Positions 5,434-47,508 of a stretch of 51,955 nt of DNA are shown here, in pieces; within the stretch, counting starts at the first letter, position 1; every line of letters begins with the position of its first letter. The notes below the pieces were generated by a model. The model worked only from the letters and a program-made list of their open reading frames with translations. It was not told the origin of the DNA and ran no database searches. The translations under genes and the position numbers were made by a program. The stretch covers positions 1 to 51,955 of IMG/VR virus record IMGVR_UViG_3300037297_000097, one strand, 5' to 3'. The DNA is from a virus.

Positions 5434-5967
5434 ATGACCGATCCAACCATTTACGCAGATCAACACGACGCCAACGCCGCGCAGCATGAGCGCGATACAG
5501 CGCTTGCCAATCATCCGGCGTGGGCGCAAATCGAGGCGCTCCGCAAACAGCTACCGACGCCCACCTGCCGTCTGTCACGGTACACCAGTGCACGGCTGGC
5601 ACGAATGTACTGGCAAGCTGAGCGCGTGCTTGATCTGGCGCGGAATATCGCAAACGCCTATGTACCACAACCGATCAAATTCGCTGTGACCGATTTACGT
5701 CGCGATGCCCGGCGGGTTATCGAGAACATCAACGCATTTTTTGAGGATAGCCATGACAACGGGCGGCGCGAAGATTGGGCATGGAATGAGCGCTATAAGA
5801 TGTGGTTCCAGCCCGACGCCGAGCGCCAAGCCGACTATTTCTACCGTCGCCAAGACGAAGTAGAGCATAAATGGTGGCTAGAGCATATGGCCGCCATGCC
5901 CCCGCGTACACGTCAACTGGAACTGGCCTTTGACCGCGCCGACGAATTGATGGAGGATCGACTGTGA
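5434..5967 (+). CDS. Hypothetical protein
   Basis: Start moved from 5344 to ATG 5434 behind SD AGGAGAG. Confidence 0.55.
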   Translation: MTDPTIYADQHDANAAQHERDTALANHPAWAQIEALRKQLPTPTCRLSRYTSARLARMYWQAERVLDLARNIANAYVPQPIKFAVTDLRRDARRVIENINAFFEDSHDNGRREDWAWNERYKMWFQPDAERQADYFYRRQDEVEHKWWLEHMAAMPPRTRQLELAFDRADELMEDRL

Positions 5968-27492: not shown

Positions 27493-27781
27493 TGAGGCCC
27501 GCCCCTGTGTAACTCCGTAGCAGCATTCCCAAACCTGAAAAGGCAAACGGATACAAAAGTAAATCCAAATCCCAGAGCCACAGCAGCATAGCAAAGAAGC
27601 CAATCCATACCGACGTACAATAGATACAATCAAAAAGGCCGCCCATTTTGAGCGACCTTAGTTTGGTCAGCATATCGAGTGGCCCGGTTTCCGTTACCAG
27701 CATGTGGCTAATGCGCCACGTGGCAACAGACAGGACAATGAGGTCAAGTGCTGTCAATGAAGGGACTCCATATCCGATCAA
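27485..27781 (-). CDS. DUF1360-like small membrane protein
   Basis: SVATWRISHMLV ... FDCIYCTSVWIGFF matches the DUF1360 pattern; three hydrophobic helices. Confidence 0.6.
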   Translation of the reverse strand: MIGYGVPSLTALDLIVLSVATWRISHMLVTETGPLDMLTKLRSLKMGGLFDCIYCTSVWIGFFAMLLWLWDLDLLLYPFAFSGLGMLLRSYTGAGLND

Positions 27782-28832
27782 TGTTCCAGGTCGAATGGTT
27801 GCCGTTCTTTTCCCATACCGGATGTTGTACCTCGATCCCGGCTAATTCTCGAAAGATGGGCGGTTCACTGAATGTCATGTAATTGTAAACACTGCGTACC
27901 GTTTCGGAGATAGTGAACTGCGGTTGCCATCCTAGTTCCGACATGGCGCGGTTGGCGTCGGGGTACTTATCGGCAGCTTCCGTGTAATGCGGCCCGTAAA
28001 TGGTGACTGGATCAACGTGGCTTATCTCACCATGTCCAACAATTTCAATGACCGTCTGTGCCAAATGATTGATGGTGGTTTTGTTATCGGGATTGCCAAT
28101 GTTGTAGGCTGTTCCCGTCTTCCCGCATTGCGCGGCCTGGATAATTCCGTCTACGATGTCGTACACGTGAGTAAAGGCTCGAATCTGTGTGCCGTCACCA
28201 AACACTGTTAACGGTAGCCCCGTCATCGCTTGCGCCACAAAACGCGGCAACACAAAACCGCCTTTACCCGACTGGCGCGGGCCTGAGACATTGAACGGGC
28301 GAATAATCACGGCATCAAGCCCGTGCAGGCGACATTGATTGATGAGTGCGGTTTCCGCTGCCAGTTTGCCGACGGCATACTCAAGTCGTATGGTGGTTTC
28401 CGCCTGGATCATGCGTGGCATGGTCTCACTGCAATATCCCGCCTTGCCCCCGCCATAAATCTCAGATGTACTGACATCGATCAACCGGCATTCACAGCGT
28501 TTAGCAAGATCAATAAGCGCCATTGTATCATGCAAGATATGATGCGCCATGACACCGCCATGTTGCAAAACTCCGGCAGGGCCAACCGGCGCGGCCAGAT
28601 GATAGATGATGTCCCATTTGGCCTCAGGCCGATTGGCAAGCCATGTATCAATGGGCGCGATTTCATAGGTCAGATTGGCGGGGTGATTTAAATCATTGAG
28701 CAACACTTCAACGGGAACTGGATTGCTACTCAGATCATCAACGATATGCACCTGATTATCCGGGTTGTCGGTTAGCTGTTTGACCAGATGCCCACCGATA
28801 AACCCCGCGCCACCGGTTACGAGTATATTCAT
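27744..28832 (-). CDS. NAD-dependent nucleotide-sugar epimerase/dehydratase (extended SDR)
   Basis: N-terminal MNILVTGGAGFIGGHL Rossmann motif; catalytic YxxxK as YAVGKLAAE. Confidence 0.85.
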   Translation of the reverse strand: MNILVTGGAGFIGGHLVKQLTDNPDNQVHIVDDLSSNPVPVEVLLNDLNHPANLTYEIAPIDTWLANRPEAKWDIIYHLAAPVGPAGVLQHGGVMAHHILHDTMALIDLAKRCECRLIDVSTSEIYGGGKAGYCSETMPRMIQAETTIRLEYAVGKLAAETALINQCRLHGLDAVIIRPFNVSGPRQSGKGGFVLPRFVAQAMTGLPLTVFGDGTQIRAFTHVYDIVDGIIQAAQCGKTGTAYNIGNPDNKTTINHLAQTVIEIVGHGEISHVDPVTIYGPHYTEAADKYPDANRAMSELGWQPQFTISETVRSVYNYMTFSEPPIFRELAGIEVQHPVWEKNGNHSTWNIDRIWSPFIDST

Positions 28833-29065
28833 GAGAAATCCTCTCTTAGAACAAATTCCTCAATGCCGCCGACGCGCGGCCATACTTTTAAATGTTTCCG
28901 CTTTATCAAAACAGCAATAGCGCTCCACTGTACAGGGATAACCTCGCCATTCGTTCGCTTTAGCTGATAGCGGATTTTTTTAGTCCACGAACCCCCTACC
29001 CAATGTGATTTTAATGTCGCGCCTTCTCGCATTTCAGACAACAGTTCGTCAGCATTCGGCTTCAT
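28829..29065 (-). CDS. Hypothetical protein
   Basis: 78-aa ORF with ATGA overlaps on both sides. Confidence 0.5.
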   Translation of the reverse strand: MKPNADELLSEMREGATLKSHWVGGSWTKKIRYQLKRTNGEVIPVQWSAIAVLIKRKHLKVWPRVGGIEEFVLREDFS

Positions 29066-30804
29066 GCGCTTTTATCCTTTTCCAATCGCGCAACGACATC
29101 AGTCAATAATTGCCGCATACGCGCCGGGTAAGTATGCCGCTTCATACACAGCTTATGCGCTTGGCTGGCGATTTTCTTGCGTTTGGCCTCATGCTCTGGC
29201 TTTAGCCAATAGCGGATTTTCTGTTTCAGGTCGTCGTAATTGTCCCACGTGTCATAATGAACGCCCTTGCGAAGACCCATCAACTTACTAAAACCCTTCG
29301 TTTTCTGATGCAAGATCATTCCACCATTGGCAATGAGGATGTCAAAAAACCGCTTGCTGACATAGCCTGTTGCACAAAATTCGTTATCGGAAATCACTAG
29401 TTTGGCATTATGATTCAAGCTCTGCGTCTGGTCAAAGTGCCAGAACGTGTTACCAGTGGCACGGGGATCATTCTGTTGTTCGCAATAAATCCCCACGTCA
29501 ATATTTTCGGCGCGTAGGTCATGTAACGCATCAGCCAGCTTTGTCCGGTGTCCACATTGCGCGGCGCGGCGGTGCAAGTTACCCTGGAATACCACATCAT
29601 GCGCGGGCATCACGGGGTAATTCTCATATTCCTCTGGGCCAGACTGCCAATAATACGCATGGATGCCAACCTGTTTACAGGCGTCTACCATATCCGCATT
29701 GACAACCAATAACCCATCCATTCCCGCCCATACCTCACGCCAGGGTGATTCGGTATGGTAGCGCGGCCAGACATCCCCAATCCAATTGAGCCAGATTGCG
29801 CCCGGCGCGGCGCGGCGTATCCGGTTGATTTCATCGGGTGTCAGCAAGTGGGGATCATGGATGTTAGACAGAATCAAATGGGGCTGTAACGCCCATGATG
29901 CGCGTGTCAGCTTGTGAACAATCTGATCATCGTCTTTGTAGAGATGTTCCCAGACAATTCCACAATCGGCCACCGCATTCTTAAACGCCGGTTTTGCTGT
30001 CTCCCAGTGGGGCACACGCCGAATGTAATCATTCACAAATAGAATGCGAAGTTCTTCGTCATGTGGATTCGGGACTTGAGGGCTACCCGGATAGCGCACC
30101 TCTGGTTTAGGTTGATTCGGGTTGCCATATTCACGCACACGGGTTTGTCTATCTTTCAGATTCACACTGCGCTGGTAATGAAACGTGTCGTCTTTGACCA
30201 CGTAGGCGACGTTCTCGACACCGGGCACTTTGTCCACCGTATACCCACGCATATAAATTTCATAGCCTAACGCATTGTCCCCGGCATACGTCCAACAATC
30301 GGTCATCTTGCCACGCCCGCCCCACCAATCACAGGCATTGCCCAGCCATGTACGCAGCATCGATGTTTGTGGATAATTGACCTGCATTAACTGACCATCA
30401 GGCCCCCAAACATTTTGCTGGTCATATCCATCTAACCAGCGATCCTCAAATTGAATAGCCCCACATTCAAGATGGGTCTCCAAGTAGGATATGGCACGTA
30501 CAATGGCATATGGCGGGAATGCGCAATCATCGGTTGCAATGAGGGTGTATTTCCCCTTTGCCGCGTGTCCGGCCTCGGTCAGTGCCTTAACACCCCCGAC
30601 TGCCTTTCCCATTTGAATGAGTCGACAATCCGACTGTGCTTCAATCCACTCCGGCGTACCATCTGTTGAGCCGTTGTCGGCCAGTACAAATTCATAACGT
30701 ATGGTTGACGGTACGGTTTGGCGTACCGACTCCACCATACGCTTGAGACCCGCAAGCCGGTTGATGGTTCCAGAACAAATTGAAAGCGTGATGTCAGTCT
30801 GCAT
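29062..30804 (-). CDS. Two-domain glycosyltransferase (N-terminal GT2, C-terminal CgeB/Glyco_trans_1_2-like)
   Basis: ITLSICSG...FVLADNGSTDGT...ATDDC is GT-A/GT2-like; the C-terminal FFDILIANGGMILHQK...HTY region is CgeB-like; start moved to ATG 30804. Confidence 0.75.
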   Translation of the reverse strand: MQTDITLSICSGTINRLAGLKRMVESVRQTVPSTIRYEFVLADNGSTDGTPEWIEAQSDCRLIQMGKAVGGVKALTEAGHAAKGKYTLIATDDCAFPPYAIVRAISYLETHLECGAIQFEDRWLDGYDQQNVWGPDGQLMQVNYPQTSMLRTWLGNACDWWGGRGKMTDCWTYAGDNALGYEIYMRGYTVDKVPGVENVAYVVKDDTFHYQRSVNLKDRQTRVREYGNPNQPKPEVRYPGSPQVPNPHDEELRILFVNDYIRRVPHWETAKPAFKNAVADCGIVWEHLYKDDDQIVHKLTRASWALQPHLILSNIHDPHLLTPDEINRIRRAAPGAIWLNWIGDVWPRYHTESPWREVWAGMDGLLVVNADMVDACKQVGIHAYYWQSGPEEYENYPVMPAHDVVFQGNLHRRAAQCGHRTKLADALHDLRAENIDVGIYCEQQNDPRATGNTFWHFDQTQSLNHNAKLVISDNEFCATGYVSKRFFDILIANGGMILHQKTKGFSKLMGLRKGVHYDTWDNYDDLKQKIRYWLKPEHEAKRKKIASQAHKLCMKRHTYPARMRQLLTDVVARLEKDKSA

Positions 30805-31333
30805 AATAATCCACCAAGAATTGTCCCAGAAACTTAAGCGTTGAAATGATGTCCCCACGCGCACAGTTTGGATATTTTTCACGCAAGTCTTTCGGTGAAA
30901 GCCTTAAGCTCTTTTCCCCTTCGTCCAAACACCATTTGATGTGATGTTCATCAAAATTGTCATCGCTCAAAACAATGTGCCCCGGACCCCATTCGGCGTT
31001 TGGATATATCGCAAGAAAGCTATTAATATCCTGTTGCATCTGCTGTTTCCGCCGTGCTTCACTGTCGGGCAGCGGGATGTTATGCGCCTCAAAAAAAGTT
31101 TCTATCCGGTTGAGTAAGCAATCCCGCTTATGCTCGCTATCCCCCTCTACACCACAATAAGTACAATAACAATCCGTAGGCCAGAAGGCATATTTACCCA
31201 ACCAGGGGTTTGCTTGCAATGCAGTGACAAGCAATTCAATCATGGCGTTGCGTTCAGTCTCAAATTCTTGAATACGTTTCTCAAGTTCTTCAATTTCAGT
31301 ATACATATCGGGTTCAAGTTCACCGGTCCACAT
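30794..31333 (-). CDS. Hypothetical protein; N-terminal half is a member of the CxxC...HxxxC family
   Basis: Coiled coil followed by CTYC...HKRDC, as in the 882 and 7528 products. Confidence 0.5.
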   Translation of the reverse strand: MWTGELEPDMYTEIEELEKRIQEFETERNAMIELLVTALQANPWLGKYAFWPTDCYCTYCGVEGDSEHKRDCLLNRIETFFEAHNIPLPDSEARRKQQMQQDINSFLAIYPNAEWGPGHIVLSDDNFDEHHIKWCLDEGEKSLRLSPKDLREKYPNCARGDIISTLKFLGQFLVDYYAD

Positions 31334-32357
31334 ATAATACCCTCCCCAACTCTACCAACCGCGCATAATCGGGCGCTATCGCATCGGCCAGTGTCGGCGT
31401 GTAAGGATTAGCAAGTACGGTTTCATTCATGAGCGTATAGCCCTCTATCGGCGTACTCTCCACTTTCGGCGGCGGGTTGATAATCCCCGACTGTATCACT
31501 GCATCAGCCAGCGCTGCAACGCCCGTCTTCTGGCCGTTGCCATTGTCGGGCTTAGCCACCTGCATCTTCTCGACAGCACGCCAGGAGCGCGGGTCACGCT
31601 CGATGTCACGTGGATCAACATAGGCAGTTTTGGGCCAACTCATACGGGGGTAACGGCGGCCTGTGGCTTTGCCCCGCACCACATGATTGCCCTTCCATCG
31701 CGCCATTGCCAATACATCGCCCGGTTGACGCTCCCCTTGTGGAATAGCAACCTCCGGCGACTGGTGTCCACAGCAACCCATTTTGTATGCGTACCTTTCC
31801 CTAAGCTGTAACTTGACATTATTCATCTGCCCCCATTGAATAGCCTGTTGGGAGCGTTGCCCATTTTTGGTGTAATGCACCAGCGGTTTGGCAACACGCT
31901 GGCCGCAAATGTCATAAAGCGCCGCCTTGAGAAACCAATCGGTATCTTCCATTGCGGCCAGCGTATGGTCAAACGGGCCAATGCGCCGCGCGTCGATAGT
32001 CAGAAGCAGCACATTGATAAGATGCCAATCGTCTTCATGGAGCCAGGGGTAATCGGTGGCCTCACGGTGGCGATCCTCAAGCCACCAATCCGTGTACGCA
32101 TAGACACCTTGCCGCACGGTTGGGATACAGGACTCTACGAAGTCCGGCTCTAGCCAGTCATCGGCGTCGCAGAACCCTACATATTCCGTGTCTACCTGTT
32201 TCAATAGTTCGTTGCGAATCCATCCTGGCCCGCGCTTATCCGTGTCCAGCATCGTGAGCGCTTTGGTAGGCACAGTCTGATTTTCAACAGCCTTTACCGC
32301 ACGGGGTAGCAGGGATTCATGGTGTGGAGCACACGGAATAATGATTGTGGCTTTCAT
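31320..32357 (-). CDS. Family 2 glycosyltransferase
   Basis: TIIIPCAPHH...AVENQTVP...GFCDADDW (GT-A fold with DxD). Confidence 0.8.
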   Translation of the reverse strand: MKATIIIPCAPHHESLLPRAVKAVENQTVPTKALTMLDTDKRGPGWIRNELLKQVDTEYVGFCDADDWLEPDFVESCIPTVRQGVYAYTDWWLEDRHREATDYPWLHEDDWHLINVLLLTIDARRIGPFDHTLAAMEDTDWFLKAALYDICGQRVAKPLVHYTKNGQRSQQAIQWGQMNNVKLQLRERYAYKMGCCGHQSPEVAIPQGERQPGDVLAMARWKGNHVVRGKATGRRYPRMSWPKTAYVDPRDIERDPRSWRAVEKMQVAKPDNGNGQKTGVAALADAVIQSGIINPPPKVESTPIEGYTLMNETVLANPYTPTLADAIAPDYARLVELGRVLYVDR

Positions 32358-42216: not shown

Positions 42217-42832
42217 AATGATCCACCGCTTTCGTCTCCGTTGCCACCGTCGCTATCGCCTCAAAAATATCCAACCCGTCAATCTCATTGCCCAAGCAAA
42301 ACCAGTTATCCCGCACCCGCCGCGCGAACAGTTCGCAGTACGGGCCATCGACAAGGCGCTCAATGCGATCTTGCGCCGCTTCCGGCTTCTCACTGTGGCG
42401 TGTCACTGGCGCAACGACCACCTGCGAAATATCTTTTGCCTTGCGCTTCGGGCTGCCCCAGGTAAACAGCAATACCAGTTCCGCATTGCCCCGTGTCCAG
42501 TAGCCGAGTCCCATTTTCCACACATCGGTAGACATGGGCTGTGTGAACCAGACCCCCGTGTGAGACTCGTTAATTTTCACCCACGTGAAGGCGACGGTCT
42601 TGTAGGTCAACCCCCACGCTTTCCCTAGCGCGATTGCCACGTCAAGCTTGGGCATGGTGGCCCACATGAATACAGCAGCGTCGGGTAGGAGTAGCGATTG
42701 AATGGGTAGTTCTGAGAGATTGCAATCGGTCAACAATGGATATTGAGACTCAGCAATTCGCGTAGGTACAGTCGCGCCGCTCCATGCCTCATATGTCCAG
42801 GGCGGATCAATGACAACCGCGCCAAATCTCAT
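42206..42832 (-). CDS. MT-A70 family adenine methyltransferase
   Basis: VVIDPPWTYEAWS (DPPW) motif near the N-terminus; about 200 aa, typical of phage MT-A70 enzymes. Confidence 0.8.
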   Translation of the reverse strand: MRFGAVVIDPPWTYEAWSGATVPTRIAESQYPLLTDCNLSELPIQSLLLPDAAVFMWATMPKLDVAIALGKAWGLTYKTVAFTWVKINESHTGVWFTQPMSTDVWKMGLGYWTRGNAELVLLFTWGSPKRKAKDISQVVVAPVTRHSEKPEAAQDRIERLVDGPYCELFARRVRDNWFCLGNEIDGLDIFEAIATVATETKAVDHYER

Positions 42833-44757
42833 GAGTATTCGAATCCTTTCTCTGGTTTCGCCACCGTCACCGGTAGCTCGCGCTGGGCCGTCGCTGGCGG
42901 CTGGGCGGGCAGGTTGGGCAGTACCCGCGTCGTCAACTGGGCATCCCGCGCCCCTGCCGTACTGCGCCGTGCATCATAGACCATGAGGCGTTCAGGACAC
43001 CAGGGCACGTAGAACTCTGGCGACGGCCCGGCAGTGCTGTTTTTCATGATCCTGGCACGGAGCAAAGCATTGCCTTCTTTGTCGCGCTGTGGCACACCGT
43101 CGGCCACATGCGGTACGGCAAACAATAGCAGTTGAAAGGGCTGCTCAGACATCCACTGCATGGCGCTCAATTCAAACTCGCCGCCATCGCGCACCTTGTC
43201 GGCGTCGGACTTTTTCATCTGTGATGCCACGAACAGCGCCAACTCCAACTGGTTGCAGACTTCCCTGATGATTTCCAGCGCCACGTCAAGCGGCATCCGG
43301 CTGCTACGCTCCTGATTTTCGAGCCATAGTTGCTGGCCGTAATCGATCCAGACTGCCGACGGCTTGTTGCCCGCTGCTACCATCTTTTGGTAGTATTTGC
43401 GGATAGCCTTTACAATACCCTCAGCCGACAACCCCGGCACGGTTCCGTAACAGTTGCGCCCCGGCATTTCGCGTAGTTGCGTCACAATCGCCTGGGCCTT
43501 TTGCACCTGCTCTGAATCCAATTTTTGGTAGCCATTGCAGGATCGCCCCGATGCTTCCGCCCGCAACGCCAACTGGTGCGCTTGCATCTGGTTATACGTC
43601 GGGCCGCCCATACGCTGCATGAGCCGGTTGCCAAACTTGCGCCCGTGTTTATCCATCCACTCACCGGATATGAGAATGCTGTGAACGCCACGCTGCATGA
43701 GATTGAACACACCCGTTTCCATCCAAATCGTTTTTCCGCCGCCCGACGGCGCAACAATGCCCATGATCTCGTTTTGGGCGATGATATGGGCGATACCGCC
43801 GTATTGATGCAAAATGCGGTACGGGTTCTCGATGCTCATCAGGCCGTCGGGTTCGTGCAGGCTGCCGAGGATGTTGCTGTACACCGCATCGCTGCTGATG
43901 GATGTCAGGTGCGGATCAACTTCGTCCTGTTCTGGCACTGTGAACGCCGAACGCTGCAACTCCCGTAACGCCCTGTCGCCATGCAACATACAGAAATCGG
44001 CCAAATCGCCACCGTTTGTCAATCCCAGTTCGGCGACCCGTGCCCGGTGGCCGAGTTGCGCTTGCAGCGTCTTACGCCAGTTGTCACCCGTCATATCGCA
44101 GTCGGGAGCCAGGATAATGTCACCCGTCCATTTGTCGTCTAGTTCCTGGATCATGGAGTCAGTCAGCGCACTTTCGCCGCCGGTCTTGCAGGCCACCGGC
44201 AGTCCGTGATGCAGCCCGGCTACAACCGACGCTTCGCCATTGCACAAAATGATGGGTAGCTGTTGCTCAGTTGCCAGCGCTACCGCCTTGTCGAGACCAT
44301 ACCAACATGGTACGTATTCGGTGGGCGAGTCGTAGGTTGGTTTGTTGCCGTCCATGAACCGGGCGCGTTCCCCAGTCTGCGTCTGGAACAGCAGCGCCTT
44401 ACGTCCTTTACGTTCACCCTCAGACCATTTCGCCCGTTCATAGGCGTCTAGCGTTGCGCCGTGTGCAATGGCGTATTCTTCCAAATTGGCATACGTGCGC
44501 TTGGTGCTGGTGACCTCCTTGCGCGGTGTCGGGATTTTGAGGTAATCGGCCAGCGCATAGAGGGAACCGCTTTGACCGGCTGGAAAATCGATGTACGCCC
44601 CATGTTCACCGTCCGGGTCGATGGTTAGCACAAACCCCATACTGTCACTGCCAGGGCGATACGGACTGTTGGAGCGCCACTTGCCGCCGCGCTCCGCTCT
44701 GGCGTTGCAATGCGTTTGTAGGTGGGCGATGACTTGCTGGCCGGTGGTCTGGGTCAT
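42829..44757 (-). CDS. Bifunctional DNA primase / replicative helicase
   Basis: Toprim-like CNGEAS...APDCDMTGD in the middle; Walker A APSGGGKT and Walker B-like VWIDYG in the C-terminal half. Confidence 0.8.
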   Translation of the reverse strand: MTQTTGQQVIAHLQTHCNARAERGGKWRSNSPYRPGSDSMGFVLTIDPDGEHGAYIDFPAGQSGSLYALADYLKIPTPRKEVTSTKRTYANLEEYAIAHGATLDAYERAKWSEGERKGRKALLFQTQTGERARFMDGNKPTYDSPTEYVPCWYGLDKAVALATEQQLPIILCNGEASVVAGLHHGLPVACKTGGESALTDSMIQELDDKWTGDIILAPDCDMTGDNWRKTLQAQLGHRARVAELGLTNGGDLADFCMLHGDRALRELQRSAFTVPEQDEVDPHLTSISSDAVYSNILGSLHEPDGLMSIENPYRILHQYGGIAHIIAQNEIMGIVAPSGGGKTIWMETGVFNLMQRGVHSILISGEWMDKHGRKFGNRLMQRMGGPTYNQMQAHQLALRAEASGRSCNGYQKLDSEQVQKAQAIVTQLREMPGRNCYGTVPGLSAEGIVKAIRKYYQKMVAAGNKPSAVWIDYGQQLWLENQERSSRMPLDVALEIIREVCNQLELALFVASQMKKSDADKVRDGGEFELSAMQWMSEQPFQLLLFAVPHVADGVPQRDKEGNALLRARIMKNSTAGPSPEFYVPWCPERLMVYDARRSTAGARDAQLTTRVLPNLPAQPPATAQRELPVTVAKPEKGFEYS

Positions 44758-45149: not shown

Positions 45150-46151
45150 TTATCCTCTACCCAACTCATCAAGCGTATCCTGCAACAGCGTGGCCGAGTC
45201 CGCCCATTCGATGTCTTCGTTGGTGTCGATCTCTTTCGCGGGCGTTGGCTTGCCGTTCGGCTTGCCTGCGTGTATCCAGGACATGACACTGCTCTGGACT
45301 TTGGGTATACTTGTCATCATACTCAATTCGGCATTATTGCCCTGATCGCGCCACCATTTCGCCCACCGTCGTATATCCTCAACATCGTCAAGGGGCGGCT
45401 CAACATTCCAACCCTTCTCTGACTTGACCGTCAATTTACCTTGAAGTACCTTACACATCTTGCCGTTCAAAGAACCCGCCAACCCAAACACCTCGAAAAT
45501 CGTATCATACCAGGGATTACGTGGCCGTTCTTTTTTTGGTGGCGCATCTGGTAAATCAGGAACAAAGTTCTGCCTTTTAAGCCGAACTCCTTTTTGTGCG
45601 ACAACTTCCATTTCCGTCGCATCGGGCAACCCATCCACAGGCGTTACCGCAATGTCATCCTCTGTCACATCGTAAGAGGTTGCCGCCACGTCACCGCTTG
45701 CCGCCACGTCACCGCTTGCCGGTGGCGTAATAGACTGACGGTTAACTGACGGTTCTAAGGACGTTTCGTCGGACATCTGGGTGTCAGGGGTAGGTAGGAC
45801 ACCCAGATGTCCGACCTGGGGTGACACCTGGGTGTCAGGGGTGACACGGGTGTCAGGGGTAGTGTTTGGCTTGTATTCGGGCTTCAAAATCGCGTTCTCA
45901 AATGCAGTCTTGTACTTCGTTGTCTTTCCCGCCCGGCGTTCTTGCACGACAAGCAATTTTTTCTCAACAAGCTTACGAATTAGTCGCCTAACCTGCCGTT
46001 CAGAGTAGTTGGTTTTCCATGCGATAAGTCCCATACTCGGATACATATTCTCGCCCTGATGGTCGGCGTGGTCAGTCATCGCTAGCAATACAACCAATTC
46101 ATTGGTTGGTAGATCAAAATCCCATACCTGTCCCGATATTTTTCCGCTCAT
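45150..46151 (-). CDS. Replication initiator-like protein (N-terminal winged HTH)
   Basis: N-terminus NELVVLLAMTDHADH...YSERQVRRLIRKLVEKKLL is wHTH-like; iterons lie inside the gene; the primase-helicase gene is 1 kb downstream. Confidence 0.6.
   Translation of the reverse strand: MSGKISGQVWDFDLPTNELVVLLAMTDHADHQGENMYPSMGLIAWKTNYSERQVRRLIRKLVEKKLLVVQERRAGKTTKYKTAFENAILKPEYKPNTTPDTRVTPDTQVSPQVGHLGVLPTPDTQMSDETSLEPSVNRQSITPPASGDVAASGDVAATSYDVTEDDIAVTPVDGLPDATEMEVVAQKGVRLKRQNFVPDLPDAPPKKERPRNPWYDTIFEVFGLAGSLNGKMCKVLQGKLTVKSEKGWNVEPPLDDVEDIRRWAKWWRDQGNNAELSMMTSIPKVQSSVMSWIHAGKPNGKPTPAKEIDTNEDIEWADSATLLQDTLDELGRG
45681..45859. repeat. Origin-like repeat cluster inside the initiator gene
   Basis: 18-bp unit x2 at 45681-45716; 18-bp perfect inverted repeat 45768-45785 / 45798-45815; TGGGTGTCAGGGG at 45778 and 45829, a 12-nt form at 45848; GGGGTGACAC at 45818 and 45838. 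Confidence 0.7.
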
Positions 46152-46445: not shown

Positions 46446-46655
46446 TCAGAATGGAATGTCATCATAATAGTCGGGGATATAGGTTTCCCAGGGAATGTCA
46501 TTGTCATTGGCGTAGGGCGTGTTGTATTCAGTCCATTCCTCGCAAACCCATTCCTCGCCATTGTGCCAGGAGGTGCGAAAATGCACAACGTCATCGTCGC
46601 CCCATTGTTCGCATAACATCCCGTCGCCAATGTCCCAGTCGTAATTATCGCTCAT
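46446..46655 (-). CDS. Small very acidic, Trp/Tyr-rich protein
   Basis: 69 aa rich in D/E and W/Y; ATGA overlap with the upstream stop. Confidence 0.5.
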   Translation of the reverse strand: MSDNYDWDIGDGMLCEQWGDDDVVHFRTSWHNGEEWVCEEWTEYNTPYANDNDIPWETYIPDYYDDIPF

Positions 46656-46903
46656 GATTGATCCTCAGGAACCAATGTATCACTGTGCCAGGGCCTCACT
46701 TCGATATGCTCAGCAAAATCGGCATCGGCCCTGATAATGAGTTTACCATTAATGTAAATCAATTCTACAGGATAGCCATAGGTTGAATCTTCTGGGCAAA
46801 CCCTGATACTCATATACTGATTGCGAAATACATCAACATCAGTTAGATTCGTCTGACTTCTAACCATTGCTGGATAGAGACCTTCTCCCATTGATTTGCT
46901 CAT
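46652..46903 (-). CDS. Hypothetical protein
   Basis: SD GAGGTGA within the junction repeat; 83-aa ORF. Confidence 0.5.
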   Translation of the reverse strand: MSKSMGEGLYPAMVRSQTNLTDVDVFRNQYMSIRVCPEDSTYGYPVELIYINGKLIIRADADFAEHIEVRPWHSDTLVPEDQS

Positions 46904-46931: not shown

Positions 46932-47068
46932 TGGACACAGCGGGACTCGAACCCGCTCCCCCGACACTCTGGTCGGGCATAGGCTGGCGTGATACGGCGT
47001 CCCGCGTCCGTTTCAGCCTATCGTCTGGCGTACTTACCAGACCGATGCTGCCATTACACCATGCGCCC
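46932..47068 (-). ncRNA. 137-nt tRNA-like element with no canonical anticodon arm
   Basis: Minus strand: acceptor GGGCGCA/UGUGUCC (two G-U pairs), U8, D-arm with A14/GG/A21, T-arm GCGGG-UUCGAGU-CCCGC, discriminator A; an 86-nt core of three hairpins replaces the anticodon arm. Confidence 0.5.
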
Positions 47069-47077
47069 GTAATGGAA

Positions 47078-47320
47078 TTAGCGATACTCGTAAATCCGCA
47101 CTACCTGAATATCGGGTGGGTCTTGTGGGTAATATTTTCCCTCCACCCTAATCTCTGAAAGAGATAGGCGTATTGGGTCTGCGCCCTTTCGCATCTGAAC
47201 GCGGAAACACCCAGGTTCGATGGTTTTATATACCCCACGAACACCGGGTATCCATTCCTTGAGCAATTTCTTCACGTTGCCCACATCGGTTTCGTTTGAA
47301 TTTAGCCAGCATTTCACCAT
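47078..47320 (-). CDS. Hypothetical protein
   Basis: Start moved to ATG 47320 behind SD AGGAGGAAAA. Confidence 0.5.
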   Translation of the reverse strand: MVKCWLNSNETDVGNVKKLLKEWIPGVRGVYKTIEPGCFRVQMRKGADPIRLSLSEIRVEGKYYPQDPPDIQVVRIYEYR

Positions 47321-47480
47321 TACTTTTCCTCCTGGGATACAAAAACCCACTTGTCTCAAGATACTTTCCGGCTTCCTGGCAGTCCCGACGTGGGTAGGAA
47401 AAGACAGAAAGCACCCTGAGAAAAATGGGTTTTTCCACGTCGTCTAGAGGGCTGCCAGTCCCGTTTATCACTCGCCTACC

Positions 47481-47508
47481 AGTATACCGCAAACCGGCGC
47501 GGTGTCAA
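47481..47508 (-). promoter_or_regulatory. Sigma70-type promoter
   Basis: Minus strand: TTGACA 47508-47503, 16-nt spacer, TATACT 47486-47481. Confidence 0.6.

What the first reader, a model, noticed from the sequence alone, without database searches (positions are those of the whole stretch)
46932..47068. 137-nt tRNA-like RNA with canonical acceptor, D and T arms but a three-hairpin core in place of an anticodon arm
The minus strand begins with a textbook tRNA 5' end: GGGCGCA, U8, then D-arm GUGU-AAUGGCA-GCAU with A14, GG and A21. It ends with a textbook 3' end: GCGGG-UUCGAGU-CCCGC, then UGUGUCC pairing with the 5' strand through two G-U pairs, then discriminator A. No CCA is encoded. Between these ends lie 86 nt that I fold into three hairpins. 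One is GUCUGG/CCAGAC with an 8-nt loop (about 47023-47042). One is an 8-bp AUAGGCUG/CAGCCUAU stem enclosing 27 nt (46979-47021). One is CCCGAC/GUCGGG with a 6-nt loop (46960-46977). None gives a 7-nt loop with U33. At 137 nt it is too long for class I or II tRNAs and too short for tmRNA or for a tRNA carrying a group I intron. It lies in a 175-bp gap inside an early operon, downstream of the 47481-47508 promoter. Possible roles are an unusual intron-bearing tRNA, an RNase P or CCA-enzyme processing signal, or a decoy for tRNA-targeting defence nucleases. These roles are speculation.
Basis: partly seen in the sequence, partly recalled or inferred. Interest (0 to 1): 0.75.

Follow-up and report, generated by a model that had tools for sequence, protein, structure and literature searches.

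The report
Anticodon-less alanine-type tRNA mimic in phage
A phage early operon carries a 137-base gene that keeps the acceptor, D and T arms of a tRNA, including the marks that alanyl-tRNA synthetase reads, but has no anticodon arm; the same shell forms the tRNA-like domain of Ro60-associated Y RNAs in Streptomyces phages, and here it stands alone.

Summary
Window 46932-47068 (minus strand) is a 137-nt tRNA-shaped gene. Rfam tRNA scores 30.3 bits at exactly these coordinates, default ARAGORN finds nothing, and the three inner hairpins are very stable (z -4.4).

A syntenic homologue in a related phage contig (L028) keeps the first 24 nt and 25 of the last 28 nt. Its interior is unrelated in sequence and not significantly structured, so the three-hairpin core is not the conserved part.

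The conserved shell (acceptor GGGC...GUCC-A, D arm, T arm) is the module that forms the tRNA-like domain of YrlA-type Y RNAs next to Ro60 genes in Streptomyces phages (Alone3, Faust and others), where its order is circularly permuted. Across 11 shells:
- all 176 pair cells pair;
- 7 of 16 pairs covary;
- G1-C72, G2-C71, G3·U70, C4-G69 and A73 never vary, and four of these make up the alanine identity set.

The window phage has no Ro60 gene and no convincing Ro-binding motif.

Best reading: a free-standing, non-decoding tRNA mimic carried as an accessory early gene. It is probably matured by RNase P and CCA addition and chargeable with alanine. It is not an intron-bearing tRNA or a tmRNA. I class it as a new variant of a known kind.

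The parts
46932..47068 (-). Whole tRNA-like RNA gene, 137 nt
   Evidence: Rfam RF00005 at 30.3 bits over exactly these coordinates. Fold -68.1 kcal/mol, z -3.88. Syntenic homologue at L028:5448-5574.
47062..47068 (-). Acceptor 5' strand GGGCGCA (positions 1-7)
   Evidence: Read. Positions 1-4 (GGGC) are invariant in 11 of 11 shells, and positions 5-7 covary with the 3' strand.
47045..47059 (-). D arm GUGU-AAUGGCA-GCAU (positions 10-24), preceded by U8 and G9
   Evidence: Read. Has A14, G18, G19 and A21. Identical in L028. The first 26 nt are 25/26 identical to a canonical phage tRNA-His in L046. The D stem covaries across the family.
47023..47042 (-). Inner hairpin H1: GUCUGG / CCAGAC with an 8-nt loop (7 bp and a 6-nt loop in the MFE fold)
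   Evidence: Not conserved in L028.
46979..47021 (-). Inner hairpin H2: the 8-bp stem AUAGGCUG / CAGCCUAU enclosing a 27-nt sub-structured loop
   Evidence: Not conserved in sequence in L028.
46960..46977 (-). Inner hairpin H3: CCCGAC-CAGAGU-GUCGGG, directly before the T arm. It occupies the position of a tRNA variable arm, or of the YrlA 'V' stem-loop.
   Evidence: L028 has a small GCGG-CUA-CCGC hairpin at the same place. The V stem-loop is described in PMC4201824.
46940..46956 (-). T arm GCGGG-UUCGAGU-CCCGC (positions 113-129)
   Evidence: Read. Pairs 49:65 and 50:64 covary across the family, and the loop UUCGARU is conserved.
46932..46939 (-). Acceptor 3' strand UGUGUCC plus discriminator A; no encoded CCA
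   Evidence: Read. G3·U70 and A73 are invariant in 11 of 11 shells.
47481..47508 (-). Sigma-70-type promoter TTGACA-16-TATACT. It is the nearest promoter-like site upstream on this strand.
   Evidence: 11 of 12 consensus match. An analogous promoter lies upstream of the L028 copy.
47339..47441 (-). Structured leader: a long imperfect hairpin followed by a U run, between the promoter and the upstream ORF
   Evidence: Read. Only weak sub-threshold Rfam matches. A similar leader is present in L028 and L027.
47078..47320 (-). Upstream 80-aa ORF of unknown function, in the same transcription unit
   Evidence: No Pfam hit. No relatives in IMG/VR.
46652..46903 (-). Downstream 83-aa ORF of unknown function. 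Its start codon lies 28 nt after the element.
   Evidence: A singleton in the protein database. No Pfam hit.

Best explanation
The element is a genuine, selectively maintained tRNA mimic that cannot decode. It keeps the acceptor stem, D arm and T arm of a tRNA, which is the half of the L-shape read by RNase P, 3'-end trimming enzymes, the CCA-adding enzyme and alanyl-tRNA synthetase. The anticodon arm is replaced by an 80-90-nt insert whose sequence is free to change.

Shown:
- The shell is conserved and covaries.
- The alanine identity set (G1-C72, G2-C71, G3·U70, A73) is invariant across the family, as is C4-G69.
- The same shell forms the tRNA-like domain of YrlA-type Y RNAs beside Ro60 genes in Streptomyces phages, in circularly permuted order.
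- This phage has no Ro60 gene.
- The element is an optional insertion in the early operon.

Inferred:
- It is co-transcribed from the 47508-47481 promoter.
- RNase P cuts before G1, the 3' end is trimmed to A73 and CCA is added, releasing a stable RNA of about 140 nt.
- That RNA can be charged with alanine but cannot pair with a codon.
- It acts in trans through its tRNA-like half by occupying or recruiting a host or defence factor that recognises tRNA. This would be analogous to what the unknown partner of the YrlA tRNA-like domain does, or to the way a TLD-only tmRNA titrates SmpB.

The insert is either a spacer or a lineage-specific second module.
For: tRNA-likeness:
- Rfam tRNA hits at the exact coordinates in the window and in L028.
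- All the elbow nucleotides are present: U8, A14, G18, G19, A21, G53-C61 and UUCGAGU.

Selection on the shell rather than the core:
- 24 of 24 and 25 of 28 identical at the two ends, against 29 of 88 columns in the interior and unalignable flanks.
- The helicases of the two phages are only 65% identical.

Family-wide structure:
- 11 distinct shells, with 176 of 176 cells paired.
- 7 of 16 pairs have changes on both sides.
- 0 of 500 shuffles reach the observed pairing, and slid controls pair at most 51%.

Alanine identity:
- Pairs 1-4 (G-C, G-C, G·U, C-G) and A73 never vary, while pairs 5-7 change with compensation.
- The acceptor top matches a canonical phage tRNA-Ala in L045, GGGCCUG/CAGGUCCA.

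Kinship with Y RNA modules:
- The 3' 25 nt of the L028 element are identical to those of the L045/Alone3 module, and the adjoining 5' half is 20/24 identical to the window's 5' end.
- The YrlA model matches that module in the order T, acceptor, D.
- A TROVE+VWA protein, annotated 'Ro-like RNA binding protein', lies directly downstream.
- M. smegmatis YrlA, which has a 7-bp acceptor, is cleaved by RNase P and gets CCA in vivo (PMC4201824).

Accessory nature: the close relative L027 has the same promoter and leader but no element.

Recurrence of anticodon-less mimics in related phages:
- An 88-nt TLD-only tmRNA in L037 (62.2 bits).
- Odd tRNA-likes in L031 and L033.
Against: - There are no expression, processing or charging data, so every step after transcription is inferred.
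- Only two tRNA-ordered members are known (the window and L028). The other nine shells are permuted Y RNA modules that I rearranged by hand, and several of them are closely related to each other.
- CCA is not encoded and the host is unknown.
- G3·U70 could be kept for a reason other than AlaRS.
- The window's insert is far more structured than chance (z -4.4), which suggests it is more than a spacer. Yet nothing about it is conserved in L028.
- No binding partner can be named.
Confidence: 0.5

Rival explanations
1. It is a cis-acting processing signal, like the t-elements of plant mitochondria. The tRNA-like fold exists only so that RNase P and a 3' endonuclease cut the early polycistronic transcript, separating or stabilising the downstream replication-gene mRNA. 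The released RNA has no function of its own.
For: - It has no promoter or terminator of its own and sits 28 nt (window) or 36 nt (L028) before the next start codon.
- Only the half of the tRNA recognised by RNase P and RNase Z is conserved.
- The interior is free to vary.
- t-elements are an established precedent (PMC1920247, listed).
Against: - RNase P needs shape, not sequence. Yet the first 24 nt are identical in two diverged phages, and GGGC...GUCC-A with the G·U wobble is invariant in 11 shells.
- The element is absent from the close relative L027, whose operon is otherwise similar.
- Its position relative to the genes differs between the window and L028.
- The same module serves in trans-acting Y RNAs.
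Confidence: 0.17
2. It is a natural tRNA scaffold. The conserved shell only provides excision from the operon transcript and nuclease resistance. The variable insert is the active part, a lineage-specific small RNA or protein-binding aptamer.
For: - Conserved ends with completely different inserts in the window and L028.
- The window insert is exceptionally structured (z -4.43, 0 of 200 shuffles).
- The Y RNA relatives use the same shell to carry another functional module, the Ro60-binding stem.
Against: - The longest Watson-Crick complement between either insert and its own genome is 9-11 nt, no better than shuffles, so no antisense target is evident.
- The L028 insert is not significantly structured (z -0.72).
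- A scaffold alone does not explain the invariance of the alanine identity set.
Confidence: 0.15
3. It is an unpermuted Y RNA. Hairpin H1 and the following GACGAUAG would form a closed Ro60-binding site, and the RNA would work with a host-encoded Ro60 (Rsr) as YrlA does.
For: - The shell is homologous to bona fide phage YrlA modules.
- The overall layout (D arm, effector stem, V-like hairpin, T arm) matches YrlA once permuted (PMC4201824).
- A relaxed motif G.CGA[AU].?G sits on the 3' strand of H1, where the permutation would put it.
- The nearest cultured-phage terminases belong to Thermobifida and Streptomyces phages, about 30% identical.
Against: - The strict GNCGAAN0-1G motif is absent from both inserts.
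- The relaxed motif arises in 13% of shuffles and is absent from L028.
- There is no TROVE/Ro60 gene in the window or in the related loci, whereas YrlA genes lie within 4 kb of rsr on the same strand.
- The host is unknown.
Confidence: 0.08
4. It is a decaying tRNA gene. A former phage tRNA, with a His/Glu/Gln-type body, lost its anticodon arm to an insertion and is drifting.
For: - The first 26 nt are 25/26 identical to a canonical phage tRNA-His, and the D arm is identical to a mycobacteriophage tRNA-Glu.
- The interior shows no conservation.
- The element is dispensable in L027.
Against: - The ends are perfectly or nearly perfectly kept while the flanks and interior are saturated with changes.
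- The changes that do occur in the stems are compensatory.
- The acceptor is not that of tRNA-His, Glu or Gln. It carries the alanine set that is invariant across the family.
Confidence: 0.06
5. It is a functional decoding tRNA with an unusual intron, or a mini-tmRNA with a very short tag.
For:
- G3·U70 and A73 are also the tmRNA acceptor marks.
Against: - The intron calls disagree: Val(cac) with a 44-nt intron against Ile(gat) with a 40-nt intron. They use a non-canonical 33/34 insertion site and mismatched stems.
- The deletion scan gives dozens of different isotypes.
- There is no Rfam match to any intron or ribozyme family at E up to 10.
- ARAGORN's tmRNA mode finds nothing.
- The window scores as tRNA rather than tmRNA, while a true TLD in L037 scores 62 bits.
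- No shared reading frame or plausible tag exists in the two inserts (direct reading).
Confidence: 0.03

Closest known systems
tRNA-like (effector) domain of YrlA-type bacterial and phage Y RNAs. Sources: Chen et al. 2014, PMC4201824; Wang et al. 2018, bioRxiv 10.1101/312249. Here this means specifically the copies upstream of the 'Ro-like RNA binding protein' genes of Streptomyces phages Alone3, LuckySocke, GiJojo, pSt2308, Faust, Moab, Comrade, Forrest, Gilson and TunaTartare.
   Same: - The same acceptor, D and T shell, at sequence level: GGGC...GUCC-A, D loop AAU(U)GGCA, T loop UUCGARU.
- A 7-bp acceptor stem, as in M. smegmatis YrlA, which is cut by RNase P and receives CCA.
- A small hairpin just before the T arm.
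- No anticodon loop.
- Phage-encoded.
   Different: - The order is that of a tRNA (5' strand, D, insert, T, 3' strand) rather than the permuted T, acceptor hairpin, D. The acceptor ends are therefore free without any cleavage.
- There is no Ro60 gene in the phage.
- There is no convincing Ro60-binding motif.
- Closed hairpins fill the place of the Ro60-binding stem.
- It sits in an early replication operon, not in a tRNA cluster.
TLD-only (reading-frame-less) tmRNA of mycobacteriophage DS6A (PMC4131195, PMC11915505), together with the 88-nt example found here in the related phage contig L037:3124-3211
   Same: - A phage-encoded, anticodon-less alanine-type acceptor (G3·U70, A73).
- About 90-140 nt long.
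- No encoded CCA in the examples here.
- In L037, a position inside the early operon upstream of the replication genes.
- A plausible action by titrating a tRNA- or tmRNA-binding factor.
   Different: - The window element has a true tRNA D arm rather than the tmRNA D-loop analogue GGAUUCGAC.
- It scores as tRNA, not tmRNA.
- It has three hairpins instead of the single P2 stem.
- Binding to SmpB is not predictable.
t-elements of plant mitochondria and other tRNA-like processing signals such as mascRNA (PMC1920247; Rfam RF01684)
   Same: - A tRNA-like fold embedded in a longer transcript, with no decoding role.
- Expected recognition by RNase P and 3' processing enzymes.
   Different: - Those elements are defined by function in RNA end formation and keep only shape.
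- Here the sequence, including an aminoacylation identity set, is conserved, and the element is optional in the operon.
Canonical phage tRNAs: tRNA-His(GTG) in L046, tRNA-Glu(CTC) of phage MrMagoo, tRNA-Ala(TGC) in L045
   Same: - The 5' 26 nt are 25/26 identical to the tRNA-His.
- The D arm is identical to that of the tRNA-Glu.
- The top four acceptor pairs and the discriminator match the tRNA-Ala.
   Different: - No 5-bp stem with a 7-nt anticodon loop.
- 137 nt long.
- A chimeric identity: an Ala-type acceptor on a His/Glu-type body.

Membership tests
Canonical decoding tRNA | 7-bp acceptor stem, D arm with A14/G18G19/A21, and T arm with a UUCRANY loop and G53-C61 | tested here: met
   Direct reading. 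The Rfam tRNA model is matched over positions 1-71 at 30.3 bits against a gathering score of 29.
Canonical decoding tRNA | 5-bp anticodon stem with a 7-nt loop carrying U33 and a purine at 37; total length about 70-95 nt | tested here: not met
   No hairpin qualifies: the loops are 8 (or 6), 27 and 6 nt. The length is 137 nt. Default ARAGORN finds nothing.
Intron-containing tRNA | Removing one insert gives the same isotype, with a canonical anticodon arm, in homologues; the intron is of a known type or at a known position | tested here: not met
   ARAGORN -i gives Val(cac) i(34,44) for the window and Ile(gat) i(34,40) for L028, both between positions 33 and 34 and with mismatched stems. The deletion scan gives many isotypes. 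There is no intron or ribozyme family at E up to 10.
tmRNA / TLD-only tmRNA | Match to the tmRNA covariance model, including the D-loop analogue (GGAUUCGAC) and the P2 stem | tested here: not met
   The best clan match for the window is tRNA, not tmRNA. ARAGORN's tmRNA mode finds none. As a positive control, L037 scores 62.2 bits against a gathering score of 47.
tmRNA / TLD-only tmRNA | Alanine-type acceptor: G3·U70 and A73 | tested here: met
tmRNA / TLD-only tmRNA | Tag reading frame with a resume codon and a stop (full tmRNA only) | tested here: not met
   The inserts of the window and L028 share no frame or tag, and stops occur in all frames (direct reading).
YrlA-type Y RNA | A tRNA-like domain with conserved T and D arms and tRNA tertiary nucleotides | tested here: met
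   The shell aligns with 9 phage YrlA modules. All 176 cells pair and 7 pairs covary.
YrlA-type Y RNA | Module order T arm, closed acceptor-like stem-loop, D arm, with the RNA's own ends forming the Ro60-binding stem | tested here: not met
   The window and L028 have the tRNA order with open acceptor ends. The YrlA model was not among the matches at E up to 10 in the window region, but it does match L045.
YrlA-type Y RNA | GNCGAAN0-1G (GGUCCGA-like) Ro60-binding motif | tested here: inconclusive
   The strict motif is absent from both inserts. The relaxed form GACGAUAG is present in the window only, and arises in 13% of shuffles.
YrlA-type Y RNA | Encoded within about 4 kb of a Ro60 (TROVE) gene, on the same strand | tested here: not met
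   No TROVE domain among 40 window ORFs scanned with Pfam or PHROGs. tblastn with the L045 Ro60 against the window and all held loci finds nothing. As positive controls, a Ro60 gene is present beside the module in L045, Alone3, Faust, GiJojo and pSt2308.
Alanine-accepting tRNA-like RNAs (AlaRS substrates) | G3·U70 wobble pair, with A73 and G1-C72/G2-C71, in a 7-bp acceptor helix stacked on a T arm | tested here: met
   Present in the window and invariant in 11 of 11 family members, while pairs 5-7 covary. That these are the AlaRS determinants is established knowledge, not tested here.
Alanine-accepting tRNA-like RNAs (AlaRS substrates) | A mature 3' CCA end and actual aminoacylation | not testable with these tools
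   CCA is not encoded. Addition of CCA and charging need experiments.
tRNA-like RNA processing signals (t-elements) | Cleavage by RNase P and RNase Z that defines mRNA ends | not testable with these tools
   Only the context is compatible: the element lies inside an operon, 28 nt before the next start codon.

The most novel reading that the evidence does not exclude
The tRNA-like half of phage Y RNAs may be an autonomous, alanine-chargeable functional unit that exists in two topologies. In one it is circularly permuted and fused to a Ro60-binding stem (Streptomyces phage YrlA). In the other it is free-standing in tRNA order with open ends, in phages that lack Ro60 (this window and L028). If so, the long-unknown partner of the YrlA tRNA-like domain works on the module itself. 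Candidates are AlaRS, EF-Tu and the ribosome, or a tRNA-sensing defence system. Phages would then deploy anticodon-less Ala-tRNA mimics, alongside TLD-only tmRNAs, as a general early-gene tool against host translation surveillance or tRNA-targeting immunity.
Probability: 0.25. Interest if true: 0.8.

Novelty: new variant of a known kind. Interest (0 to 1): 0.6.

Why it matters
Bacterial and phage Y RNAs were shown in 2014 to contain a close tRNA mimic, but what that domain binds is still unknown.

This element is the same module stripped of the Ro60-binding part, with free acceptor ends, in a phage without Ro60. That argues the module has a function of its own and gives a simple construct to test it with: RNase P cleavage, CCA addition, alanylation, pull-downs and phage deletion.

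The finding that the alanine identity set, together with C4-G69, is invariant across eleven shells while neighbouring pairs covary is a concrete, falsifiable prediction. It says these RNAs, including the Streptomyces phage Y RNAs now annotated as tRNA-Ser or tRNA-Arg, are AlaRS substrates.

Together with the TLD-only tmRNA and the other anticodon-less tRNA-likes in neighbouring phages, it points to a wider class of phage-encoded non-decoding tRNA mimics that default gene finders miss or mislabel.

Tried and rejected
1. Direct homologue searches for the element:
- INPHARED phages by blastn: only generic T-arm and D-arm matches.
- E. coli genomes: none.
- IMG/VR patterns: none.
- Genome collection: only chance hits beside normal tRNAs, plus one odd locus, L039.
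- Metagenome pattern: 22 of 23 hits were two adjacent tRNA genes, and 1 was an unrelated long tRNA-like (L014).

2. Flanking small proteins as handles: singletons. Success came only through the helicase and through a pattern built from the conserved 3' end.

3. Antisense (C4-like) hypothesis: the longest complement of either insert to its own genome equals the shuffle expectation. A first attempt with duplex energies timed out.

4. Hidden tRNA or intron: inconsistent calls.

5. Mini-tmRNA with a tag: no frame, no tmRNA model match, and ARAGORN -m negative.

6. attP or integration remnant: no integrase was recognised among the scanned ORFs, and both halves of the acceptor stem are present and pair, so I rejected this.

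7. Retron or reverse-transcriptase-associated RNA: no RT among the neighbours.

8. Ro60-binding motif: not significant.

9. Conservation of the three-hairpin topology: with the tRNA arms constrained, L028 also gives short, long and short hairpins, but this is weak (z -0.7) and cannot be tested with two sequences.

10. Other relatives: the Rfam scans of L027, L032, L033, L035, L036, L042, L043 and L044 found no copy of this element. The only tRNA-clan match among them is the unrelated L033:692-763.
Full report
**1. The observation**

On the minus strand, window 47068-46932 reads as follows:

GGGCGCA-UG-GUGU-AAUGGCA-GCAU-CG-[GUCUGG-UAAGUACG-CCAGAC]-G-[AUAGGCUG-27 nt-CAGCCUAU]-G-[CCCGAC-CAGAGU-GUCGGG]-GGA-GCGGG-UUCGAGU-CCCGC-UGUGUCC-A

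The only omission is G9 between U8 and the D stem.
- The nucleotides that build the tRNA elbow are all there: U8, A14, G18, G19, A21, G53-C61 and the UUCGAGU loop.
- No CCA is encoded.
- The Rfam tRNA model hits exactly 46932-47068 over its full length, at 30.3 bits against a gathering score of 29. It bridges the core with large local insertions.
- Default ARAGORN finds no tRNA in the window, and its tmRNA mode finds none in the element.
- The minimum-free-energy fold is the acceptor stem, a D-arm hairpin (not in the canonical register), three hairpins and the T arm, at -68.1 kcal/mol and z -3.9. Constraining the canonical tRNA arms gives the same three inner hairpins.
- The 88-nt stretch between the D and T arms folds on its own at -42.5 kcal/mol, z -4.4, with 0 of 200 shuffles as good.

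**2. Genomic setting**

- The window is a phage genome. It encodes a large terminase, two DNA methyltransferases, an O-like/HTH_36 replication initiator at 45150-46151 and a primase-helicase at 42829-44757.
- No tRNA is detected by ARAGORN.
- No integrase, reverse transcriptase or Ro60 was recognised.
- The same sequence exists as a 51-kb Logan contig from run SRR12668987.
- The element lies in a 174-nt gap between an 80-aa and an 83-aa ORF of unknown function.
- Upstream are an 11/12 sigma-70 promoter match at 47508-47481 and a long leader hairpin with a U run.
- The nearest cultured-phage terminases belong to Thermobifida and Streptomyces phages, about 30% identical. This is only a hint at an actinobacterial host.

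**3. Homologues in tRNA order**

- No DNA collection held a copy, and the flanking small proteins are singletons.
- Through the helicase I reached three lineages at 65% identity.
- One of them, contig L028 (with an identical copy in L029), carries a 127-nt element at 5448-5574. It follows an early promoter and a leader hairpin and lies 36 nt before the replication initiator gene. Rfam tRNA scores it 34.5 bits.
- Alignment with the window element gives these identities:
  - 24 of 24 at the 5' end;
  - 25 of 28 at the 3' end, including one compensatory T-stem change (G-C to A-U) and G5·U68 becoming G5-C68;
  - 29 of 88 columns in the interior;
  - no alignable flanks.
- The L028 interior is not significantly structured (z -0.72). 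With the tRNA arms constrained it also falls into a short, a long and a short hairpin, but that cannot be tested with two sequences.
- A second 65% relative, L027, has the promoter and the leader but no element.

The conserved, selected part is therefore the tRNA shell, not the three-hairpin core. The element is also an optional insertion in the operon.

**4. What it is not**

*Not an intron-bearing tRNA.*
- With introns allowed, ARAGORN calls Val(cac) with a 44-nt intron in the window and Ile(gat) with a 40-nt intron in L028. Both introns sit at position 33/34 and both calls use mismatched stems.
- Scanning all deletions yields dozens of isotypes.
- No intron or ribozyme family matches at E up to 10.

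*Not a tmRNA.*
- There is no tmRNA model match and ARAGORN's tmRNA mode is negative.
- The two inserts share no tag frame.

*Not an antisense RNA against its own genome.* The longest complements are 9-11 nt, the same as for shuffles.

**5. The shell is the tRNA-like module of phage Y RNAs**

- A pattern built from the conserved 3' end found one IMG/VR contig, L045.
- There the sequence ACGGGUUCGAGUCCCGUUGCGUCCA is identical over 25 nt to the L028 3' end. After a 5-nt linker it is followed by GGGCGUAUGGUGUAAUUGGCAACAC, which is 20/24 identical to the window's 5' end and pairs perfectly with the upstream 3' strand.
- This is the same shell in circularly permuted order. An outer 8-bp helix closes the whole RNA.
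- The Rfam YrlA (Y RNA-like) model matches it in the order T arm, acceptor hairpin, D arm, at 23.3 bits and E 0.011, below that model's threshold.
- The gene that starts about 80 nt downstream encodes a TROVE+VWA protein, that is, Ro60.
- The L045 segment is 100% identical to Streptomyces phages Alone3 and LuckySocke. The module recurs at 76-90% identity in GiJojo, pSt2308, Faust, Moab, Comrade, Forrest, Gilson, TunaTartare and others.
- In each of the four records I examined with enough flank (Alone3, Faust, GiJojo and pSt2308) it lies upstream of an annotated 'Ro-like RNA binding protein'. In some records it is labelled tRNA-Ser or tRNA-Arg.
- These loci meet the published criteria for YrlA: conserved T and D arms with an acceptor-like stem-loop between them, a GGUCCGA-like motif near the 5' end, and a location within 4 kb of rsr on the same strand (PMC4201824).

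**6. Family-wide test**

I put nine permuted modules into tRNA order by hand and aligned them with the window and L028 shells (A4).

| Measure | Result |
|---|---|
| Paired cells | 176 of 176 |
| Pairs with changes on both sides | 7 of 16 |
| Shuffles reaching the observed pairing or covariation | 0 of 500 |
| Pairing in slid registers | at most 51% |

- Within the acceptor stem, pairs 5-7 vary with compensation (G-C, C-G, U-A, G·U and others).
- Pairs 1-4 are G-C, G-C, G·U, C-G in all eleven shells, and the discriminator is always A.
- G1-C72, G2-C71, G3·U70 and A73 are the determinants read by alanyl-tRNA synthetase. This is established knowledge of tRNA-Ala and tmRNA identity and was not tested here.
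- The top of the stem equals that of a canonical tRNA-Ala in L045, GGGCCUG/CAGGUCCA.
- The body is not Ala-like. The first 26 nt are 25/26 identical to a phage tRNA-His, and the D arm equals that of a mycobacteriophage tRNA-Glu.

A wobble pair held fixed while its neighbours covary is hard to explain by helix stability alone.

Caveats:
- Several of the nine phage modules are close relatives of each other.
- I constructed the permuted alignment myself.
- Only two members have the tRNA order.

**7. Membership**

- The element is not a YrlA Y RNA in the defined sense:
  - the order is not permuted;
  - the phage has no Ro60 gene;
  - the strict Ro60-binding motif is absent;
  - a relaxed match (GACGAUAG, on the 3' strand of hairpin H1) arises in 13% of shuffles and is missing from L028.
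- It is not a tmRNA-like domain either.
- It shares with both the property of being an anticodon-less tRNA mimic.
- It shares with the YrlA module actual sequence homology.

**8. Related mimics nearby**

Phages related through the replication initiator or the helicase carry other non-decoding tRNA-likes.

- L037:3124-3211 is an 88-nt TLD-only tmRNA. It scores 62.2 bits against a gathering score of 47, with the 300-nt mRNA and pseudoknot part replaced by 16 nt, and it has G3·U70 and A73. It sits in the early operon.
  - The precedent is mycobacteriophage DS6A.
  - A similar TLD-only molecule strongly inhibits tmRNA, perhaps by titrating SmpB (PMC4131195, PMC11915505).
- L031:4886-4958 is tRNA-shaped, with a closed hairpin instead of an anticodon loop.
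- L033:692-763 has an 8-bp acceptor stem, a 5-bp T stem and an 8-nt loop.

**9. Most likely mechanism**

*Shown:*
- a conserved, covarying tRNA shell with an invariant alanine identity set;
- a free-to-vary insert;
- optional presence in an early operon, with no promoter-like site between 47481 and the element and no terminator-like site on its strand;
- homology to a module that in M. smegmatis YrlA is cleaved by RNase P and CCA-tailed in vivo.

*Inferred:*
- transcription from the 47508-47481 promoter;
- RNase P cleavage before G1;
- 3' trimming to A73 and CCA addition;
- a stable RNA of about 140 nt that AlaRS can charge but that cannot decode;
- action in trans through the tRNA-like half on a tRNA-recognising host or defence factor.

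I put this at about 0.5. The main rivals are:
- a pure cis processing signal, weakened by the sequence-level conservation and by the element's dispensability in L027;
- a tRNA scaffold for a variable active insert, favoured by the strong structure of the window insert but weakened by the invariant identity set;
- a host-Ro60-dependent unpermuted Y RNA, for which no motif or rsr gene was found;
- a decaying tRNA gene, contradicted by the compensatory changes.

**10. Novelty and interest**

- Anticodon-less tRNA mimics are known (YrlA domains, TLD-only tmRNA, t-elements), so this is not a new category.
- What appears new is a free-standing, tRNA-ordered version of the Y RNA module in phages that lack Ro60.
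- Also apparently new is the observation that the whole module family carries an invariant alanine identity set.
- This makes the unanswered question of what the YrlA tRNA-like domain does experimentally approachable with a simpler RNA.
- I rate interest at 0.6.
- From memory only, and not checked here: the stable 'species 1/2' RNAs in the phage T4 tRNA cluster may be a further historical analogue.

Noticed in passing
L037:3124-3211 (+); identical context in L038: An 88-nt TLD-only mini-tmRNA in a 51-kb phage contig related through the replication initiator. Rfam tmRNA scores 62.2 bits (gathering score 47, E 2.7e-22), with the 300-nt mRNA and pseudoknot region replaced by 16 nt. It has G3·U70 and A73 and starts right at the stop codon of a 100-aa early gene. 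It is a new example of the DS6A type.
   Followed up: partly
window 47339-47441 (-); L028:5330-5428; L027:8340-8418: A conserved early leader. After a sigma-70 promoter comes a long imperfect hairpin ending in a U run, with a shared GGUUUCUCAGGGCGUU-like motif in three related phages. It is present whether or not the tRNA-like element follows. It looks like a regulated terminator or antiterminator leader.
   Followed up: no
L045:8925-9300 (-), identical to Streptomyces phage Alone3 10912-11062; also L047, L050, L051: Streptomyces phage Y RNAs upstream of Ro-like genes are annotated as tRNA-Ser(gct) or tRNA-Arg(cct), or not annotated at all. Two or three tandem units carrying a CCGAUGCG(Y)AG motif and ending in UUUCUAGG precede rsr, which suggests several Y RNAs per locus. 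All have a 7-bp acceptor with G3·U70 and A73 closed by a 5-7-nt linker, so RNase P cleavage and alanylation are predicted.
   Followed up: partly
L031:4886-4958 (+) and L033:692-763 (+): Two more non-canonical tRNA-like genes in helicase-related phage contigs. One has a 9-bp hairpin with a tetraloop in place of the anticodon arm (ARAGORN calls it 'tRNA-???', with a 2-nt anticodon). The other has an 8-bp acceptor stem, a 5-bp T stem and an 8-nt loop AUCGUAUG (tRNA-Sec model at 31 bits, below threshold).
   Followed up: partly
L014:14624-14732 (-): An unrelated tRNA-like RNA of about 127 nt in a 28.6-kb metagenome contig, with the same D-loop start and the same T loop. It has a large insert in the D loop and a long hairpin instead of an anticodon arm. 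Its context was not examined.
   Followed up: no
window 27744-32357 (-): The phage encodes an NAD-dependent epimerase/dehydratase (GDP-mannose 4,6-dehydratase-like) and two glycosyltransferase-family proteins, in the stretch of large minus-strand genes downstream of the terminase gene. This hints at modification of host surface sugars or of the virion.
   Followed up: no
L027:15499-15565; L032:15120-15189; L037:11461-11536: Matches to the int-alpA RNA family at comparable positions in three related phage contigs, between the methyltransferase genes and the terminase genes. The scores are 35.7 bits (0.1 below the gathering score), 29.8 and 24.2 bits. No such match appeared in the window at the gathering threshold.
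   Followed up: no
L039:5344-5468 (-) (Actinomycetota MAG JBCCRO010000038.1): An odd locus with two alternative 5' acceptor strands (GGGCGCA and GGGCGUUCUGGAU) facing one T arm and an AGCGCCCA 3' end. The second strand resembles the 5' end of a tmRNA-like domain. No Rfam family reached E 1 at this locus.
   Followed up: no
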